Source: a virus (lineage: Duplodnaviria; Heunggongvirae; Uroviricota; Caudoviricetes). Taken from it: DNA of 64,000 bases. This document shows positions 2,109-62,123 of this stretch, piece by piece. The position numbers and the translations under genes are program-made. The notes under the pieces were generated by a model that ran no database searches, was not told where the DNA came from, and saw only the letters and a program-made list of their open reading frames with translations. The stretch's first letter is position 1; every line of letters starts with the position of its first letter. The stretch is from IMG/VR virus record IMGVR_UViG_3300019376_000001; one strand, 5' to 3'.

Positions 2109-2137
2109 ATTATACCATATTTTTAATAAAAAATCAA
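2109..2137 (-). promoter_or_regulatory. consensus sigma70/SigA-type promoter (-35 TTGATT, 17-nt spacer, TG-extended -10 TATAAT)
   Basis: plus strand shows ATTATA..17 nt..AATCAA; member of 24-copy family; upstream of 1548..2072. Confidence 0.6.
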
Positions 2138-2160
2138 CCCGAGGATTCTGTTGCCTCGGG
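2138..2160 (-). terminator. hairpin terminator (CCCGAGG...CCTCGGG) followed by T-run on minus strand
   Basis: 7-bp GC stem; directly after stop of 2173..3162 and abutting next promoter. Confidence 0.55.
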
Positions 2161-2172
2161 TTGACTGTTATC

Positions 2173-3162
2173 TTATAGACGCTTCAAGTCGAAAATAATC
2201 ATATCCAACTGAGGAGCCTGGTCTGCGGTACAGTCGCCAACCTTCTTGCCCCTGCCAAGGTGACTCTCAACAATCTGAGTAATCTTAGCGGCATTAGTAG
2301 GACTGCCCTTTTCCATCAAACGACCAACGATTGTCTGGAATTCATCCATCAAAGCCTTGAAGTCGTATGTAGGCTCATCTACATGCATCTGAGTAGCGGA
2401 GTTTGTAACAGCGCCTGCTCCACGCATTTCAGCTTCCTTGTCAATAGCCTCTGCAATAGCATTTACAAGGTTATCATAAGTGAAATTAATTACGTCAGGA
2501 GTATAGCGGAAACGAGAACCAGCTACATATCTTGGAGTTCCACGGAGGAAGAGCTTAGTCTGAACACCAGCCTCGGTATCAACAGCCTTAGAGAAGCCGA
2601 TGATATCGCAAGTTCTCTCGCAAACCAGTCTTGCTCTCTTGTCAAGAGTAGGAACAATCTGATTATATTCCTTACCAGTTTCGTCGGTGAAGACCTTGTC
2701 TTCGGAGTGAGAGATAAGTACCAGACCGTAATCCATCTGAAGAATCTTTCTGATGCTCTCGTCGAACTCAGTCATCGCCATCTTATAACCCTTACCATAA
2801 GGAATTTCAGCGATGTTATCGTAGGAGTTCTTAGCATCGGACGCCTGGCCGCAAATGTATTTCTCACAGTAGCCATATGCGATATCCGCAGTGTCGATAA
2901 CAACAGTCTGGAAGATGTTCTTTACTTCTGGGTCATTGAGTTCACGGAGAGTCTTTTTGAAATCACCCCAGCTGTTCATAGGCTTAGCCATGATGCCAGG
3001 AATCGCAGAGTAACCCTTTTCGAATGCAAGAACAATTGCACCAGGGAACTGAGAAGCGATTGTAGTCTTACCACTCTTAGGTGTTCCGTAGAACAGAACA
3101 GAATATCCACGAAGGTTTCTACTTACCTGATGAGGTTTAATGTCTAATAGTGAATTTCCCAT
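2173..3162 (-). CDS. Sak4-like RecA-family ATPase (phage recombination)
   Basis: 329 aa; Walker A VLFYGTPKSGKTT; size and motif spacing typical of phage Sak4/AAA_24; adjacent to an SSB-like gene as in Sak4 modules. Confidence 0.6.
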   Translation of the reverse strand: MGNSLLDIKPHQVSRNLRGYSVLFYGTPKSGKTTIASQFPGAIVLAFEKGYSAIPGIMAKPMNSWGDFKKTLRELNDPEVKNIFQTVVIDTADIAYGYCEKYICGQASDAKNSYDNIAEIPYGKGYKMAMTEFDESIRKILQMDYGLVLISHSEDKVFTDETGKEYNQIVPTLDKRARLVCERTCDIIGFSKAVDTEAGVQTKLFLRGTPRYVAGSRFRYTPDVINFTYDNLVNAIAEAIDKEAEMRGAGAVTNSATQMHVDEPTYDFKALMDEFQTIVGRLMEKGSPTNAAKITQIVESHLGRGKKVGDCTADQAPQLDMIIFDLKRL

Positions 3163-3242
3163 TTTATTTTCTCCTTATATAATATATGAACAATATTCAA
3201 TTAAAAATCCTTGTTAACCCCTCGTGGGGGCTGGGGATTCAA

Positions 3243-4181
3243 TTAGAAATCGAATCCACCAGCGGCAGGAGCTGCCTTAGCGGCACCGCCAGCCTTAGAT
3301 GCCTTATATTCATCGCTACGAGCCTTCATTGCAGCCAAGTCAGTTTCTCTCTTGGTCATGCACTCCTTAAGCTCAGCAGCTGTAATGGTGCTTTCATCAT
3401 CCCAGAGGTAAGGCTCTTTCATAGCCCAAGTAATGACAAAGTCCTTACGAGTGCTCTTAACCTCACGTACGGAAGCTTCACCGAATGCAGACTCTTCCTC
3501 GATAGTACGAACGATAGTCTCGCTTACCTGACGACCCTTAACCTTTGTGAACACAGGCTCCTTAGAAGAAGCTTCAAGTCCCTCAAAGTAGTTAATAGCA
3601 TTAGGATTGAGAACAGAAAGTTCGATAGGCATCAAATCATTTCTGAAGTTAAAGATAGCTCCACGAACGATTGCCTTCTCAGGAGTCTGCTTCTCTTCGT
3701 CAGCGTCAACATGGCTCACGTTAGTGATAATCATGTCAACCTCGAAAGTGTTACGAGTCTTTTCATCCTCGTTGATTGCGTTAACTACGTGGATAAAACC
3801 ACCTTCGTTACGCTTTACGCTAACAAGCTCTTCCTTACCATTTCTGTCAGAATAGAACTCGTTCAAACCGATTGCAGAATCGATACGAAGCTTAGCAGCC
3901 TTGTCAGCGCCATCCTTCATAACAGTACCGAGCTTACCATTGATGATATCGCTCAGAGTACCGAAAGATGCATTTGCCTTACCCTTAGAGGTAGTAGCAG
4001 TTACATATGTGAAGTGAACAGGCACGATGTTAACACCGGCATCGTCAGTTGCGATTTCGATGTTACCAGAGATGAACTCTGTACCAGGGTTCTTAGAATT
4101 CTCGCCAGTCACTTTGAGTTCCAAATCATGCTGATAAAGTAAACCTTCAATATGAGTTCTGTTAATCATTGCACTTTTCAT
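3243..4181 (-). CDS. putative phage ssDNA-binding protein (Sak4-associated SSB-like)
   Basis: 312 aa; acidic/Gly-rich C-terminal tail ending GGFDF reminiscent of SSB tails; located next to the Sak4-like ATPase; family assignment is inference. Confidence 0.4.
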   Translation of the reverse strand: MKSAMINRTHIEGLLYQHDLELKVTGENSKNPGTEFISGNIEIATDDAGVNIVPVHFTYVTATTSKGKANASFGTLSDIINGKLGTVMKDGADKAAKLRIDSAIGLNEFYSDRNGKEELVSVKRNEGGFIHVVNAINEDEKTRNTFEVDMIITNVSHVDADEEKQTPEKAIVRGAIFNFRNDLMPIELSVLNPNAINYFEGLEASSKEPVFTKVKGRQVSETIVRTIEEESAFGEASVREVKSTRKDFVITWAMKEPYLWDDESTITAAELKECMTKRETDLAAMKARSDEYKASKAGGAAKAAPAAGGFDF

Positions 4182-4195
4182 GTTCTTAATTCTCC

Positions 4196-4543
4196 TTAAT
4201 CAATCTTATAATTTTTTCCTTTTTCAGTTAAAGCGTAAACAACTGGGTCAGCTCCGACCTTTTCACAGAAGCCATCATTGACCAACTTACGCAGAGAACC
4301 GGATACTGCACGAGAACTAATAAACAGTCCTTCGGCAACATCTCTTGCCTTAACCATAGGCATATCGGACTTCTGCATCCAGTCAAGAATCACCTTGCCG
4401 CTGTCAGTGACTTCGGGTTTGTCATTCTTAGTGTCCATGAGTGCTTCAATGTAAGCCTTTACATTATCAGTCATTTTGTCAGCAACTACGTCTGGCGCAG
4501 CTGCCATTAGCGCATTTAGAAAATCAATAAATTCTTGTTTCAT
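4196..4543 (-). CDS. hypothetical small protein
   Basis: 115 aa ORF with own consensus promoter upstream (4587..4615). Confidence 0.4.
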   Translation of the reverse strand: MKQEFIDFLNALMAAAPDVVADKMTDNVKAYIEALMDTKNDKPEVTDSGKVILDWMQKSDMPMVKARDVAEGLFISSRAVSGSLRKLVNDGFCEKVGADPVVYALTEKGKNYKID

Positions 4544-4586
4544 AATAGTATTACCTCTTTTTGTTTTTCATTTACTTTATATAAAT

Positions 4587-4615
4587 ATTATACCATATTT
4601 AATTTGAAAAATCAA
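4587..4615 (-). promoter_or_regulatory. consensus SigA-type promoter copy
   Basis: ATTATA-17-AATCAA on plus strand; upstream of 4196..4543. Confidence 0.6.
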
Positions 4616-61085: not shown

Positions 61086-61127
61086 TTCAAAAGAAAAAGA
61101 TTGCTGTGTGTGCCTTTATTGGTTTTA

Positions 61128-61361
61128 TTACATTTGAACTTTTTGGACAAGAGGCTTCTTTGATACTTCGCCGCATCCTGTTCCTTGATAGGAAGTTGCA
61201 ACTGTATACAGCCTCTCCGGTTTCACATTTCCAAACCTGTGGAGAATGTGAGCGCCCTGGCGCATATGCGAAGTCTTATTTTCAACTTGAAACTTCGCCC
61301 ATTGAATGATTTCCGAACCAGTGAACTCGGTTCCGGGTTGATAACTTAGAATATTTCGCAT
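61128..61361 (-). CDS. hypothetical protein
   Basis: 77 aa ORF with strong RBS (AGGAGG 8 nt upstream). Confidence 0.45.
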   Translation of the reverse strand: MRNILSYQPGTEFTGSEIIQWAKFQVENKTSHMRQGAHILHRFGNVKPERLYTVATSYQGTGCGEVSKKPLVQKVQM

Positions 61362-61386
61362 AGTAAACCTCCTATCATCATTTTTG

Positions 61387-61463
61387 TGGTAGCGGGAGAA
61401 GGATTTGAACCTCCGACCTCTTGGTTATGAGCCAAGTGAGCTGCCGAACTGCTCTATCCCGCG
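61387..61463 (-). tRNA. tRNA-fMet(CAT) initiator-like
   Basis: CGCGGGA...TCCCGCTACCA with unpaired 1:72 (C1/U72), strong overall similarity to bacterial initiator tRNA; anticodon loop CTCATAA. Confidence 0.65.
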
Positions 61464-61539
61464 TGGATGCGGGGGGTGGACTCGAACCACCGACCTTCAG
61501 CTTATGAGGCTGACGAGCTACCACCTGCTCTACCCCGCA
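61464..61539 (-). tRNA. tRNA-Met-like(CAT), fMet-related sequence with U1-A72
   Basis: TGCGGGGTAGAGCAGGTGGTAGCTCGTCAGCCTCATAAGCTGAAGGTCGGTGGTTCGAGTCCACCCCCCGCATCCA; abuts previous tRNA. Confidence 0.65.
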
Positions 61540-61615
61540 TGGTGACCCCAAGGAGAATCGAACTCCTGCCTTCGCCGTGAAAGGGCGACGTCTTAAACCG
61601 CTTGACTATGGGGCC
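61540..61615 (-). tRNA. tRNA-Glu(TTC)
   Basis: anticodon loop CTTTCAC, CCA encoded; abuts previous tRNA. Confidence 0.8.
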
Positions 61616-61872
61616 AGATATCAAGACCTGTTGCCGCAGGTCTTGTCATTCTATCGTGGCATTTTGGCATTATTGTCGGCAAACAATCGTGACCTCTCAA
61701 CCACCTATTGGCTTCTTCATCATTCCACCAGGCCGGCACTCCTGCCAGAGAAGGAATCGAACCCTCTAACAACTTCTGTCATAGAACTACCCAACACTCG
61801 TACTCTTGGGTCGGAGCGTACTCACTTGTACATTTAATCTTCATCTATAAATCGGGCTGAGTAATAACCCTA

Positions 61873-61947
61873 TGGTGACCCGTGAGGGAATCGAACCCTC
61901 GTCTCCGGCGTGAGAGGCCGGTGTCTTGACCGCTTGACTAACGGGCC
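61873..61947 (-). tRNA. tRNA-Glu(CTC)
   Basis: anticodon loop CTCTCAC, CCA encoded. Confidence 0.8.
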
Positions 61948-62094
61948 ATATGATTAGACTTCCTTGGCGAGTTCTTCTTGAACCTCAAGCCAAGCCTCAT
62001 ACATAGCTTCATTGTAAACTTCTTCACATTGAATTTGAGTTGTAAAATCATCAAATGGCATATGTATTATTTCCTTTCTTTATCTTATATAAAT

Positions 62095-62123
62095 ATTATA
62101 ACATATTTTTTTTGAAAAATCAA
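62095..62123 (-). promoter_or_regulatory. consensus SigA-type promoter copy
   Basis: ATTATA-17-AATCAA; upstream of a 34-aa ORF (61961..62065) and tRNA-Glu(CTC). Confidence 0.5.

What the first reader, a model, noticed from the sequence alone, without database searches (positions are those of the whole stretch)
2109..62123. Twenty-four near-identical consensus promoters with fixed 17-nt spacer punctuate the whole window, usually paired with an upstream hairpin terminator
The minus-strand motif TTGA(T/C)T-N17-TATAAT, with TG at -15/-14 and an A/T-rich UP-like region, recurs before nearly every gene or small operon and before tRNA blocks. On the plus strand it reads ATTATA..17..AATCAA or AGTCAA. 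In many intergenic regions the preceding gene ends in a GC hairpin immediately abutting the next -35 element. This produces a highly modular one-promoter, one-terminator architecture with an invariant spacer. It suggests uniform strong expression by the host primary sigma, or by the phage-encoded SigA-like factor.
Basis: seen in the sequence. Interest (0 to 1): 0.55.

Follow-up and report, generated by a model that had tools for sequence, protein, structure and literature searches.

The report
Repeated strong promoters in a large phage
One strand of this uncultured large phage carries 24 copies of a roughly 48-base, near-perfect "housekeeping-sigma" promoter, each heading a gene or tRNA block and about half sitting directly behind a terminator hairpin; this is a tidy example of a known kind of phage early-gene wiring rather than a new mechanism.

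Summary
The motif is real and far beyond chance. TTGAYT-N17-TATAAT occurs 22 times, all on the minus strand, against 0.05 expected. A 48-nt weight matrix finds 24 family members and nothing else. The site at 14377 is a chance match, and 7603-7631 is an extra member.

It carries about 53-61 bits, where about 12 would suffice to specify the sites.

Each copy sits on the coding strand at the head of a unit of 1-9 CDS and up to 13 tRNAs. Only 11 of 24 follow a terminator hairpin. In 7 of those the stem abuts the -35, so TTGATTTTTT serves as the terminator's U-tract.

The same element, with the same gene associations, recurs in a clade of uncultured phage contigs of roughly 40-400 kb. These phages also carry a full-length SigA-like sigma (42049-43074), itself preceded by this promoter. 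The sigma keeps the -35, extended -10 and most -10 contact residues.

A cultured Enterococcus phage with no SigA-like gene uses the same promoter design. Host sigma-A is therefore sufficient in principle, and which sigma reads these sites is unresolved. Verdict: new member of a known kind.

The parts
2090..2137 (-). Promoter (48-nt element; -35 TTGATT at 2132-2137); heads the 174-aa ORF and DnaB
   Evidence: (65.7 bits)
4568..4615 (-). Promoter; heads a 115-aa ORF, a 312-aa ORF and the AAA_24 gene
   Evidence: (57.9 bits)
7322..7369 (-). Promoter (TTGACT variant); heads an 89-aa ORF, GIY-YIG, ThyA and a 163-aa ORF
   Evidence: 40.2 bits
7584..7631 (-). Weaker member, TTGACA-N17-TACAAT; overlaps the 3' end of the ligase ORF; heads a 65-aa ORF
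   Evidence: (29.2 bits)
9582..9629 (-). Promoter; heads the NAD-dependent DNA ligase gene
   Evidence: (57.1 bits)
14736..14783 (-). Promoter; heads the GyrB ... GyrA unit
   Evidence: (61.3 bits)
20697..20744 (-). Promoter (TTGACT); heads a 154-aa ORF ... PhoH
   Evidence: 47.3 bits
24106..24153 (-). Promoter (best match to the family consensus)
   Evidence: 69.7 bits
24897..24944 (-). Promoter; heads a metallophosphatase gene
   Evidence: 63.7 bits
28505..28552 (-). Promoter; heads the unit containing NAMPT and NadE
   Evidence: 65.0 bits
30667..30714 (-). Promoter; heads the isochorismatase ... PRPP-synthetase-like unit
   Evidence: 65.2 bits
33559..33606 (-). Promoter; heads a 94-aa ORF and the MVP-like protein. 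Its upstream edge is an indel hot spot in close relatives.
   Evidence: (55.7 bits)
36262..36309 (-). Promoter; heads Sir2 ... Thg1
   Evidence: 57.4 bits
41411..41458 (-). Promoter; heads RNase T, RNA ligase ... (9 CDS)
   Evidence: (65.9 bits)
43109..43156 (-). Promoter (TTGACT) directly upstream of the phage SigA-like sigma gene
   Evidence: (61.3 bits)
45867..45914 (-). Promoter; heads the YAcAr ... metallophosphatase unit
   Evidence: 57.7 bits
46228..46275 (-). Promoter (TTGACT, divergent downstream part); single 89-aa ORF
   Evidence: 43.3 bits
46734..46781 (-). Promoter (TTGACT, divergent); single 133-aa ORF
   Evidence: 32.5 bits
49504..49551 (-). Promoter; 211-nt leader, then the DUF2828/DUF7788 gene
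   Evidence: (66.8 bits)
51861..51908 (-). Promoter ahead of two tRNA-Gly genes
   Evidence: 65.0 bits
52505..52552 (-). Promoter ahead of tRNA-Leu; overlaps the end of a 60-aa ORF
   Evidence: 61.6 bits
54539..54586 (-). Promoter (TTGACT) lying 17 nt downstream of tRNA-Trp
   Evidence: 50.8 bits
57700..57747 (-). Promoter (TTGACA) lying 11 nt downstream of tRNA-Met; heads a small ORF, then tRNA-Pro, tRNA-Ile ...
   Evidence: 58.8 bits
62076..62123 (-). Promoter; heads a small ORF and a block of 13 tRNAs
   Evidence: (67.3 bits)
2138..2160 (-). Terminator hairpin whose stem abuts the -35 (0 nt); TTGATTTTTT serves as its U-tract
9632..9655 (-). Terminator hairpin, 2 nt from the -35
14819..14850 (-). 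Terminator hairpin with its own T-tract, about 35 nt upstream of the -35
24945..24975 (-). Terminator hairpin abutting the -35
28553..28578 (-). Terminator hairpin abutting the -35
30715..30736 (-). Terminator hairpin abutting the -35
41468..41492 (-). Terminator hairpin, 9 nt from the -35
43166..43187 (-). GC hairpin 9 nt from the -35, with no T-tract of its own
45915..45945 (-). Terminator hairpin abutting the -35; together with its promoter it is 87% identical to the cassette at 24905-24975
46289..46315 (-). Terminator hairpin, 13 nt from the -35
46784..46804 (-). Terminator hairpin, 2 nt from the -35
42049..43074 (-). Phage-encoded SigA/RpoD-like sigma, 341 aa (regions 1.2, 2, 3 and 4; region 1.1 weak)

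Best explanation
WHAT THE SITES ARE
The 24 sites are functional promoters of the primary-sigma (sigma-70/sigma-A) class. They drive the early/middle, non-structural part of a large uncultured phage of a Gram-positive-type host.

ANATOMY OF EACH ~48-bp ELEMENT
- A -35 hexamer, TTGAYT.
- A rigid 17-bp spacer made of a T-run followed by an A-run.
- The Gram-positive '-16' / extended -10 motif, TATGn.
- A perfect TATAAT.
- An A/T-only discriminator.
- A purine start site 7 nt after the -10.
- A purine-rich initial transcript that runs into the Shine-Dalgarno sequence.

HOW THEY ARE READ
Host RNA polymerase carrying a group-1 sigma recognises these elements. The host's own sigma-A must do so at the start of infection, because the phage's SigA-like gene itself lies behind one of them. 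The phage sigma keeps the same DNA-contact residues, so it probably adds to or takes over this recognition later. That step is inferred, not shown.

ARCHITECTURE
Each element starts a unit of 1-9 genes or a tRNA block. Where the previous unit ends in a GC hairpin, the hairpin often abuts the -35. The T-rich TTGATTTTTT then doubles as the terminator's U-tract, giving a compact terminator-promoter cassette.

SHOWN VERSUS INFERRED
Shown: the sequence features, positions, strand bias, conservation and sigma residues. Inferred: actual use of the sites, their timing, and which sigma reads them.
For: STATISTICS AND ANATOMY
- 22 exact matches against 0.05 expected, all on one strand.
- A discrete family of 24, with a score gap from 29 down to 5.6 bits.
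- Only a 17-nt spacer occurs.
- TG is invariant, and the +1 column is purine-only (A17/G7) at exactly 7 nt after the -10.

PLACEMENT
- All genes with Pfam hits are on the minus strand.
- Leaders are 23-62 nt to the RBS and start codon in 19 units.
- Five sites lie ahead of tRNAs or long leaders.

TERMINATORS
- 11 hairpins, 7 of them abutting the -35.
- In related loci, 18% of promoters have a stem ending 0-5 nt from the -35, against 2% at random positions.

CONSERVATION
- An IMG/VR pattern scan returned 119 loci, about 80 of which share proteins with the window.
- 330 matrix hits in 1.0 Mb have the same extended consensus, including the hits not selected by the search pattern.
- In aligned orthologous intergenic regions the core is conserved, while the flanking hairpins keep their structure but change sequence.
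- Homologues of promoter-led genes carry a promoter upstream in 37 of 68 cases, against 18 of 128 for operon-internal genes (p = 5e-9).
- Loci fetched through sigma homology alone (64% and 56% identity) carry 8 and 9 hits, all on the coding strand, each with one directly upstream of sigma.
- Bacterial SigA loci carry none.

SIGMA
- E = 1e-92 to B. subtilis SigA.
- The -35 helix TRERIRQ is identical, H455/E458 are kept, and the aromatic -10 residues are kept.

HOST SIGMA-A IS SUFFICIENT IN PRINCIPLE
- Cultured Enterococcus phage VRE9_3 has no SigA-like gene.
- It has about 25 co-oriented sites of 20-43 bits with the same design in its replication and tRNA regions.
- There are none in the 50 kb that hold its structural genes.
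Against: - No transcription data exist; every functional statement is in silico.
- The element carries about 53-61 bits, of which only about 25 lie in the -35, TG and -10. Something beyond ordinary sigma contacts therefore constrains it.
- All phage sigmas replace the bacterial-invariant QAITR with Q[TSA]I[GS]R, and they alter region 1.2. These are segments that, in E. coli sigma-70, touch -12 and the discriminator (my knowledge). An altered specificity cannot be excluded.
- The lysin genes at 14855-18625 and several other units lack this promoter, so it is not the only promoter class.
- In the abutting cases the 'U-tract' UUGAUUUUUU is interrupted by GA, so termination may be partial.
Confidence: 0.8

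Rival explanations
1. The elements are a private promoter class read only, or mainly, by the phage's own SigA-like sigma. On this reading the extra conserved positions (spacer T/A-runs, AT discriminator, initial transcribed region) form a code matched to lineage-specific changes in sigma regions 1.2 and 2.4. That would insulate phage transcription from host sigma-A.
For: - About 28-35 bits lie outside the canonical elements.
- QAITR is replaced by Q[TSA]I[GS]R, and DDPVRMY by DSVKLY, in every phage sigma but in no bacterial SigA examined.
- The sigma lineage and the promoter family co-occur in every locus fetched through sigma.
- The phage sigma forms its own lineage (56-100% identity) and is no more than about 58% identical to the other, bacterial-type SigA sequences listed.
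Against: - The sigma gene itself is driven by this promoter class in the window and in 8 of the 10 pattern-found relatives with a sigma homologue, and in all three loci fetched through sigma. Something else must therefore read the promoter first, unless sigma is packaged in the virion.
- The -35 and extended -10 contact residues are unchanged.
- The promoter is a perfect sigma-A consensus.
- A cultured phage with no SigA-like gene uses the same design.
Confidence: 0.15
2. Besides acting as promoters, the repeated terminator-promoter cassettes serve as portable homology for recombination. They would shuffle gene modules between related phages, as proposed for PeSLs in T4-like phages.
For: - Gene order is reshuffled among relatives, with promoters at module junctions (L105, L103).
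- Two cassettes 21 kb apart are 87% identical over 71 nt, hairpin included (family D3).
- Against close relatives (78-98% nucleotide identity), homology resumes exactly at the -35 of P33606 in four loci, with three allelic states: 0, 1 or 2 inserted genes.
- A replacement in L128 runs from the P46781 cassette to the P45914 cassette.
- Other breaks fall at cassette edges 46784, 41492 and 46316.
Against: - Promoter enrichment at rearranged junctions disappears when gap size is controlled: 5 of 23 against 16 of 67 for gaps of 300 nt or less.
- Only about 5 of about 17 distinct indels against close relatives touch a cassette. About 20% would be expected if indels hit gene junctions at random, given 8 promoters among roughly 40 junctions.
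- Selection alone would place tolerated insertions just upstream of a promoter.
Confidence: 0.3
3. The excess conservation reflects an overlapping operator. A phage-encoded regulator would bind the T-run/A-run quasi-palindrome in the spacer, or the ATATAT block, to switch the whole set off (early shut-off) or on.
For: - Spacer positions carry 16 bits and the discriminator 8.6 bits.
- The spacer reads T4-5 N2-3 A5-6, an inverted-repeat-like arrangement.
- The same spacer pattern persists while genome G+C drifts from 42% to 32%.
Against: - No candidate regulator was identified.
- T-runs and A-runs, and A/T-only melting regions, are also explained by promoter mechanics (curvature, easy melting) and by re-use of the T-run as a U-tract.
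- The looser VRE9_3 sites keep the T-run but not the A-run.
Confidence: 0.12
4. The matches are chance products of A/T-rich intergenic sequence.
For: The motif is A/T-rich and lies in A/T-rich spacers.
Against: - 0.05 matches expected against 22 found.
- No shuffle reaches 30 bits in the window, or in loci of 32-36% G+C.
- There is an absolute strand bias and a single spacer length.
Confidence: 0.01

Closest known systems
PeSLs (promoter-early stem-loops) of T4-like myoviruses (Arbiol et al. 2010, PMC2839356; Comeau et al. 2014, PMC4122927)
   Same: - A repeated composite cassette: a stem-loop just upstream of a near-perfect sigma-70 promoter (TTGACA-N17-TATAAT in RB49/phi1), followed by an SD and a start codon.
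- Many copies across the non-structural part of a large phage genome.
   Different: - The host type and phage lineage differ. Here the RBS and sigma are Firmicute-like, and DnaB is closest to phages of Enterococcus and Bacillus.
- Only 11 of 24 copies have the stem-loop.
- The core is longer and tighter (48 nt).
- The defining association with indels was not demonstrated here.
Early promoters of large virulent phages read by the host primary sigma (T5 P25/P26/N25, T4 early, SPO1 early). This comparison rests on my own knowledge and was not retrieved here.
   Same: Families of very strong consensus promoters, with conservation extending beyond the hexamers into A/T-rich flanks and the initial transcribed region, heading early genes.
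   Different: - The exact consensus differs: TTGATTTTT, T/A-run spacer, TATGn, ATATAT discriminator.
- This phage also encodes a full-length SigA-like sigma, which T5, T4 and SPO1 do not (my knowledge).
Gram-positive '-16 region' (TRTG) extended -10 promoters (Voskuil & Chambliss 1998; my own knowledge)
   Same: TATGnTATAAT fits TRTG-n-TATAAT exactly. T and G are invariant, and the two preceding positions are T in 21 and A in 19 of the 23 sites tabulated.
   Different: That motif is a general feature of host promoters, not a repeated 48-nt cassette.
Promoter-like sites of cultured Enterococcus phage VRE9_3 (PP680569.1), examined here
   Same: - TTGAYT followed by a T-run, ATGnTATAAT, an A/T discriminator and ATAAAG-type starts.
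- Co-oriented with the genes of the replication, nucleotide and tRNA regions.
- Some sites sit directly behind hairpins.
- None in the 50 kb that hold the structural genes.
- DnaB is 44% identical, and the AAA_24/Sak4 ... DnaB gene order is shared.
   Different: - A looser family, scoring 15-43 bits against 29-70 here.
- No SigA-like sigma gene.
RpoD-like sigma factors encoded by jumbo/huge phages (Iyer et al. 2021, PMC7824862; Al-Shayeb et al. 2020, PMC7162821)
   Same: A near-complete cellular-type sigma in a large phage that lacks evidence of its own RNAP in the sequence examined.
   Different: Those passages describe the genes, and name no cognate promoter set in the text retrieved. Here a candidate promoter set is defined and shown to travel with the sigma lineage.

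Membership tests
Primary-sigma (sigma-70/sigma-A) promoter | -35 hexamer close to TTGACA | tested here: met
   TTGATT in 16 sites, TTGACT in 6 and TTGACA in 2; TTGA is invariant.
Primary-sigma (sigma-70/sigma-A) promoter | -10 hexamer TATAAT at 17 +/- 1 bp | tested here: met
   23 sites have TATAAT and 1 has TACAAT. The spacer is always 17 nt; no other spacer from 14 to 20 nt gives a match.
Primary-sigma (sigma-70/sigma-A) promoter | Extended -10 TG / Gram-positive TRTG | tested here: met
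   T and G are invariant in the 23 sites tabulated, where the preceding two positions are T in 21 and A in 19. The 24th site, 7603, also has TG.
Primary-sigma (sigma-70/sigma-A) promoter | Purine start 6-8 nt after the -10, co-oriented with and upstream of a gene | tested here: met
   The column 7 nt after the -10 is A in 17 sites and G in 7. All 24 sites are on the coding strand. Leaders are 23-62 nt in 19 units.
Primary-sigma (sigma-70/sigma-A) promoter | Transcription actually initiates there with a sigma-A holoenzyme | not testable with these tools
   Needs 5'-end mapping or in vitro transcription.
UP element | A/T-rich, A-tract-containing DNA at about -40 to -60 | tested here: inconclusive
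   No column-specific information upstream of the -35. Hairpin-less sites are 72-74% A+T against 58-64% background, with about 52% A at 8-11 nt upstream of the -35. In 7 sites a hairpin occupies this position.
Intrinsic (Rho-independent) terminator | GC-rich stem, 3-8 nt loop, followed by a T-rich tract | tested here: met
   Met by 10 of the 11 promoter-linked hairpins; 43166-43187 has no T-tract. In 7 of them the T-tract is TTGATTTTTT of the next promoter. Whether they terminate in vivo was not tested.
PeSL (promoter-early stem-loop) | Stem-loop immediately upstream of a sigma-70-like promoter, then an SD and a start codon | tested here: met
   Met by 11 of 24 copies; the other 13 lack the stem-loop.
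PeSL (promoter-early stem-loop) | Many conserved copies, preferentially outside structural modules | tested here: inconclusive
   There are 24 copies in a non-structural 64 kb, but no structural region of this phage is available. In VRE9_3 the 50 kb that hold the structural genes have none.
PeSL (promoter-early stem-loop) | Association with indels or replacements between close relatives | tested here: inconclusive
   Striking individual cases exist (33606, 46801-45918). Overall there is no enrichment once gap size or junction number is controlled.
PeSL (promoter-early stem-loop) | Occurs in T4-like myoviruses of Gram-negative hosts | tested here: not met
   The closest cultured homologues of DnaB are phages of Enterococcus, Bacillus and Staphylococcus. 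The SD is AAGGAGG-type and the sigma is closest to Firmicute SigA.
Group-1 (primary-like) sigma factor | Regions 1.2, 2, 3 and 4 present | tested here: met
   Pfam Sigma70_r1_2, r2, r3 and r4 are all above their cut-offs.
Group-1 (primary-like) sigma factor | Region 1.1 | tested here: inconclusive
   21.2 bits against a cut-off of 22.5. The precomputed Pfam list for the phage lineage lacks PF03979, whereas many of the more distant, bacterial-type SigA hits carry it.
Group-1 (primary-like) sigma factor | Conserved promoter-contact residues (-35: R584, E585, R588, Q589; extended -10: H455, E458; -10: Y425, Y430, W433, W434, Q437, T440, R441; E. coli numbering, from my knowledge) | tested here: met
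   All are conserved except T440, which is G here and S or G in the phage lineage generally.

The most novel reading that the evidence does not exclude
The phage sigma and the 48-bp element would form a self-contained, self-reinforcing transcription system conserved across a clade of large uncultured phages. Host sigma-A fires the set once, including the sigma gene. The phage sigma, with altered regions 1.2 and 2.4, then reads the extra information in the spacer, the discriminator and the start region preferentially. Phage transcription would thereby become independent of the state of host sigma-A (stationary phase, sporulation, anti-sigma activity). The same T-rich -35 region would be dual-coded as the U-tract of the preceding terminator.
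Probability: 0.2. Interest if true: 0.6.

Novelty: new member of a known kind. Interest (0 to 1): 0.35.

Why it matters
The finding gives an explicit, testable promoter set for a clade of uncultured large phages: 24 sites here and hundreds in relatives, with predicted start sites. These phages carry their own housekeeping-type sigma factor.

In the literature retrieved here, such sigma genes are noted in jumbo and huge phages, but the passages I read name no cognate promoters. The element could be used in three ways:
- to annotate early and middle transcription units in metagenomic phage genomes;
- to recognise members of this clade (a 23-base pattern pulled out over 100 loci, about two-thirds of which share proteins with the window);
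- as a compact strong promoter-terminator part for Gram-positive synthetic biology.

As a mechanism it is ordinary.

Tried and rejected
- DNA search of the window against cultured and GenBank phages found no match. The phage is known only from metagenomes.
- The single-protein related-loci search with sigma found nothing. Relatives were reached instead through the DNA pattern and the protein database.
- My first 'orthologous position' mapping was inflated, because tblastx aligned promoters to each other. I discarded those counts and replaced them with the gene-anchored test and the alignments.
- I tested PeSL-like shuffling two ways. The apparent enrichment (p = 5e-7 with gaps up to 2.5 kb) vanished for gaps of 300 nt or less, so I do not claim it.
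- I tested whether TTGATT (rather than TTGACW) is tied to abutting hairpins. The result was 43 of 66 against 151 of 286, a weak trend only. The T-run is therefore a property of the promoter that terminators exploit, not the reverse.
- I looked for known RNAs in the long leaders after promoters 49551, 51908, 52552 and 54586. Rfam found only tRNAs.
- I looked for a second promoter motif in the promoter-less intergenic regions. There are too few regions to define one.
- Literature searches for SPO1 early-promoter consensus text and for rumen jumbo phages were unproductive.
- The site at 14377-14405 was rejected as a family member (-18.3 bits, inside gyrB).

Full report
THE OBSERVATION
- The pattern TTGAYT-N17-TATAAT occurs 22 times in the 64-kb window. 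Every match is on the minus strand, against 0.05 expected from dinucleotide-preserving shuffles. Allowing one mismatch gives 24.
- Relaxed versions of the pattern match only with a 17-nt spacer: 25 matches at 17 nt and none at 14-16 or 18-20 nt, on either strand.
- I built a 48-nt weight matrix from the sites and rescanned both strands. Twenty-four minus-strand sites score 29-70 bits. The next best minus-strand score is 5.6 bits and the best plus-strand score is 11. Shuffled sequence never reaches 30 bits.
14377-14405 lies inside gyrB and scores -18.3 bits, so it is a chance match. 7603-7631 (TTGACA-N17-TACAAT) is a genuine weaker member.

ANATOMY
- Conservation extends well beyond the two hexamers. 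The consensus is TTGAtTTTTt..aAAAaaTATG.TATAATATATAtatAAagtaAaga.
- By segment, the information content is: -35, 10.1 bits; spacer, 16.2; TGn, 4.2; -10, 11.2; discriminator, 8.6; +1 to +13, 10.6.
- The total is about 53-61 bits, against 12.4 bits needed to specify 24 sites in this window.
- TATGnTATAAT fits the Gram-positive TRTG '-16' motif (my knowledge).
- The column exactly 7 nt after the -10 is purine-only (A17/G7), as expected of a start site.
- Upstream of the -35 there is no position-specific signal. Hairpin-less sites are moderately A/T-rich there, with a mild A excess. The 'UP-like' claim is therefore weak.
- TTGATT sites (16) match the full consensus best. The TTGACT/TTGACA sites (8) are looser.

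CONTEXT
- Every ORF with a Pfam assignment is on the minus strand. These include DnaB, NAD-ligase, GyrA/GyrB, ThyA, NAMPT, NadE, Sir2, Thg1, RNase T, a flotillin-like protein, an MVP-like protein and lysins.
- There are 35-36 tRNA genes at 50.4-63.7 kb.
- The 24 elements head units of 1-9 CDS and up to 13 tRNAs.
- In 19 units the predicted +1 lies 23-62 nt from an AAGGAGG-type RBS and start codon. In the others a tRNA or a 97-251-nt leader follows.
- Two elements overlap the last codons of the upstream ORF; the rest are intergenic.
- The lysin genes (14855-18625) and some other units lack the element. Five terminator hairpins have no promoter after them. The layout is therefore not strictly one promoter, one terminator.

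TERMINATOR PAIRING
- Eleven of the 24 promoters have a GC-rich hairpin upstream. In seven the stem ends 0-2 nt before TTGA, so the T-rich TTGATTTTTT is the only available U-tract.
- Across related loci, 18% of elements have a stem ending within 5 nt of the -35, against 2% at random positions.
- In aligned orthologous regions the hairpins keep their position and pairing but not their sequence.
- The T-run is equally present in elements without hairpins. It is therefore a promoter property that terminators re-use.

RELATIVES
- The window has no DNA match among GenBank phages.
About 80 of them share proteins with the window. The closest is a 402-kb contig whose DnaB is 77% identical.
- These loci hold 330 matrix hits in 1.0 Mb, the same density as the window. 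The 190 hits that do not match the search pattern give the same extended consensus.
- The gene association is conserved. Homologues of promoter-led window genes have an element within 300 nt upstream in 37 of 68 cases, against 18 of 128 for homologues of operon-internal genes (p = 5e-9).

THE SIGMA FACTOR
- ORF 42049-43074 is a 341-aa sigma with regions 1.2, 2, 3 and 4, and a sub-threshold region 1.1.
- It matches B. subtilis, S. aureus and C. difficile SigA at E of about 1e-90 to 1e-92.
- The -35 recognition helix (TRERIRQ), H455/E458 for the TG motif and the aromatic -10 residues are unchanged (E. coli residue numbering from my knowledge).
- The bacterial-invariant QAITR is Q[TSA]I[GS]R in every phage copy, and region 1.2 is altered.
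- The protein belongs to a distinct lineage (56-100% identity, 337-342 aa) on contigs up to 198 kb. The remaining, bacterial-type SigA hits listed are no more than about 58% identical.
- Loci fetched through this protein alone, and so unbiased with respect to the promoter, carry 6, 8 and 9 elements. All are on the coding strand, and in each locus one lies directly upstream of sigma, even though genome G+C falls to 32%.
- Two bacterial dnaG-sigA loci carry none.
- In the pattern-derived loci, sigma homologues are preceded by the element in 8 of 10 cases.

WHICH SIGMA READS THEM?
- Sequence cannot decide. Because sigma's own gene lies behind this promoter class, host sigma-A (or a packaged protein) must read it first.
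- Cultured Enterococcus phage VRE9_3 shares DnaB at 44% identity and the Sak4/AAA_24 ... DnaB gene order. Its annotated 'sigma factor' shows no significant similarity to the window's sigma (blastp E = 1.2), and tblastn of the window's sigma over its 138 kb finds nothing.
- It nevertheless has about 25 co-oriented sites of 20-43 bits with the same design: TTGAYT plus a T-run, ATGnTATAAT, an A/T discriminator and an ATAAAG-type start.
- These sites lie in its replication, nucleotide and tRNA regions. There are none in the 50 kb that hold its structural genes.
- This makes host sigma-A sufficient in principle. It also suggests the class is early/middle.
- That the phage sigma supplements or replaces host sigma-A later is an inference.

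THE PeSL COMPARISON
- The closest described architecture is the promoter-early stem-loop of T4-like phages: a stem-loop just upstream of a near-consensus sigma-70 promoter, then an SD and a start codon. These elements are proposed to mediate modular shuffling (PMC4122927, PMC2839356).
- The form matches for 11 of 24 copies.
- I tested the shuffling idea. Gene modules are reordered among relatives, and two cassettes 21 kb apart are 87% identical over 71 nt.
- Against close relatives (78-98% identity), homology resumes exactly at the -35 of P33606 in four loci, with three allelic states. One replacement spans from the P46781 cassette to the P45914 cassette.
- However, the enrichment of elements at rearranged junctions disappears for gaps of 300 nt or less (5 of 23 against 16 of 67).
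- Only about 5 of about 17 distinct indels touch a cassette, close to the junction-level expectation.
- The recombination role is therefore possible but not shown. The lineage and host type also do not fit the T4-like definition.

VERDICT
- The motif observation is right, and stronger than stated, since the element is 48 nt rather than two hexamers.
- The hairpin pairing and the 'nearly every gene' claim are overstated.
- The interpretation as primary-sigma promoters is well supported in silico. The choice between host and phage sigma remains open, with host sigma-A sufficient in principle.
- This is a new member of a known kind: phage early-promoter families and composite terminator-promoter cassettes. 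Its modest added interest is that it supplies a candidate promoter set for a phage-encoded SigA-like factor across an uncultured clade.

Noticed in passing
window 55090-55206 (-): Rfam calls a 117-nt tRNA (38 bits) that ARAGORN missed. A tRNA 3'-half-like repeat copy lies at 55077-55112. This may be a tRNA with an insertion of roughly 45 nt, possibly an intron.
   Followed up: no
window 30749-33235 (-): An 828-aa protein with major-vault-protein shoulder and repeat domains. Among GenBank phages its only homologues are the uncultured 462-735-kb huge phages LR756500, LR756501 and LR756503, at about 39% identity. It is conserved next to promoter P33606 in relatives.
   Followed up: partly
window 24980-37266 (-): A cluster of NAD-related genes: NAD synthase, NAMPT, a PRPP-synthetase-like gene, an isochorismatase/nicotinamidase-like gene, Sir2 and NADAR. 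Close relatives add a CTP_transf_like (NMNAT-type) gene just upstream of P33606. The cluster may be an NAD+ salvage or counter-defence module.
   Followed up: no
window 34083-49551 (-): RNA-repair-type genes: Thg1-like, an RNA-ligase-like gene, RNase T, and a weak sub-threshold RlaP match. A DUF2828/DUF7788 protein is preceded by a 211-nt leader containing a T-arm-like GGTTCATATCCAACC. No Rfam family matched the leader.
   Followed up: partly
window 6957-6985, 18663-18692, 38270-38283, 47451-47477, 47735-47758 (-): Strong terminator-like hairpins that are not followed by a family promoter. The genes after them, including the 769-aa multi-domain lysin, must depend on read-through or on an unrecognised second promoter class.
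   Followed up: partly
window 24905-24975 and 45875-45945: Two whole terminator-plus-promoter cassettes 21 kb apart are 87% identical over 71 nt, sharing the hairpin loop TTATGTAAACCATAA. This suggests duplication or gene conversion of cassettes (family D3).
   Followed up: partly
window 3183-3211 (-): A decayed-looking copy of the element (AGGATTTTT...CATATAttatataaggag, -7.5 bits) lies upstream of the AAA_24 gene.
   Followed up: no
window 33606-33619; L120 16254-17078; L126 19973-20806; L127 12159-12427: The 12-15 nt just upstream of promoter P33606 is an insertion hot spot. Close relatives carry 0, 1 (83 aa) or 2 (CTP_transf_like plus 84 aa) extra genes there, and homology resumes exactly at the first T of the -35.
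   Followed up: yes
window 20877-22409 (-): A 510-aa SPFH/flotillin-like protein is encoded in a phage. It is conserved in relative L103.
   Followed up: no
L130-L132 (Enterococcus phage VRE9_3, PP680569.1): The record's annotated 'sigma factor' (131590-132609) shows no detectable similarity to sigma-70-family proteins in my comparison (E = 1.2). The genome has divergent promoter-like sites around 83.2-83.5 kb, where the gene orientation flips.
   Followed up: partly
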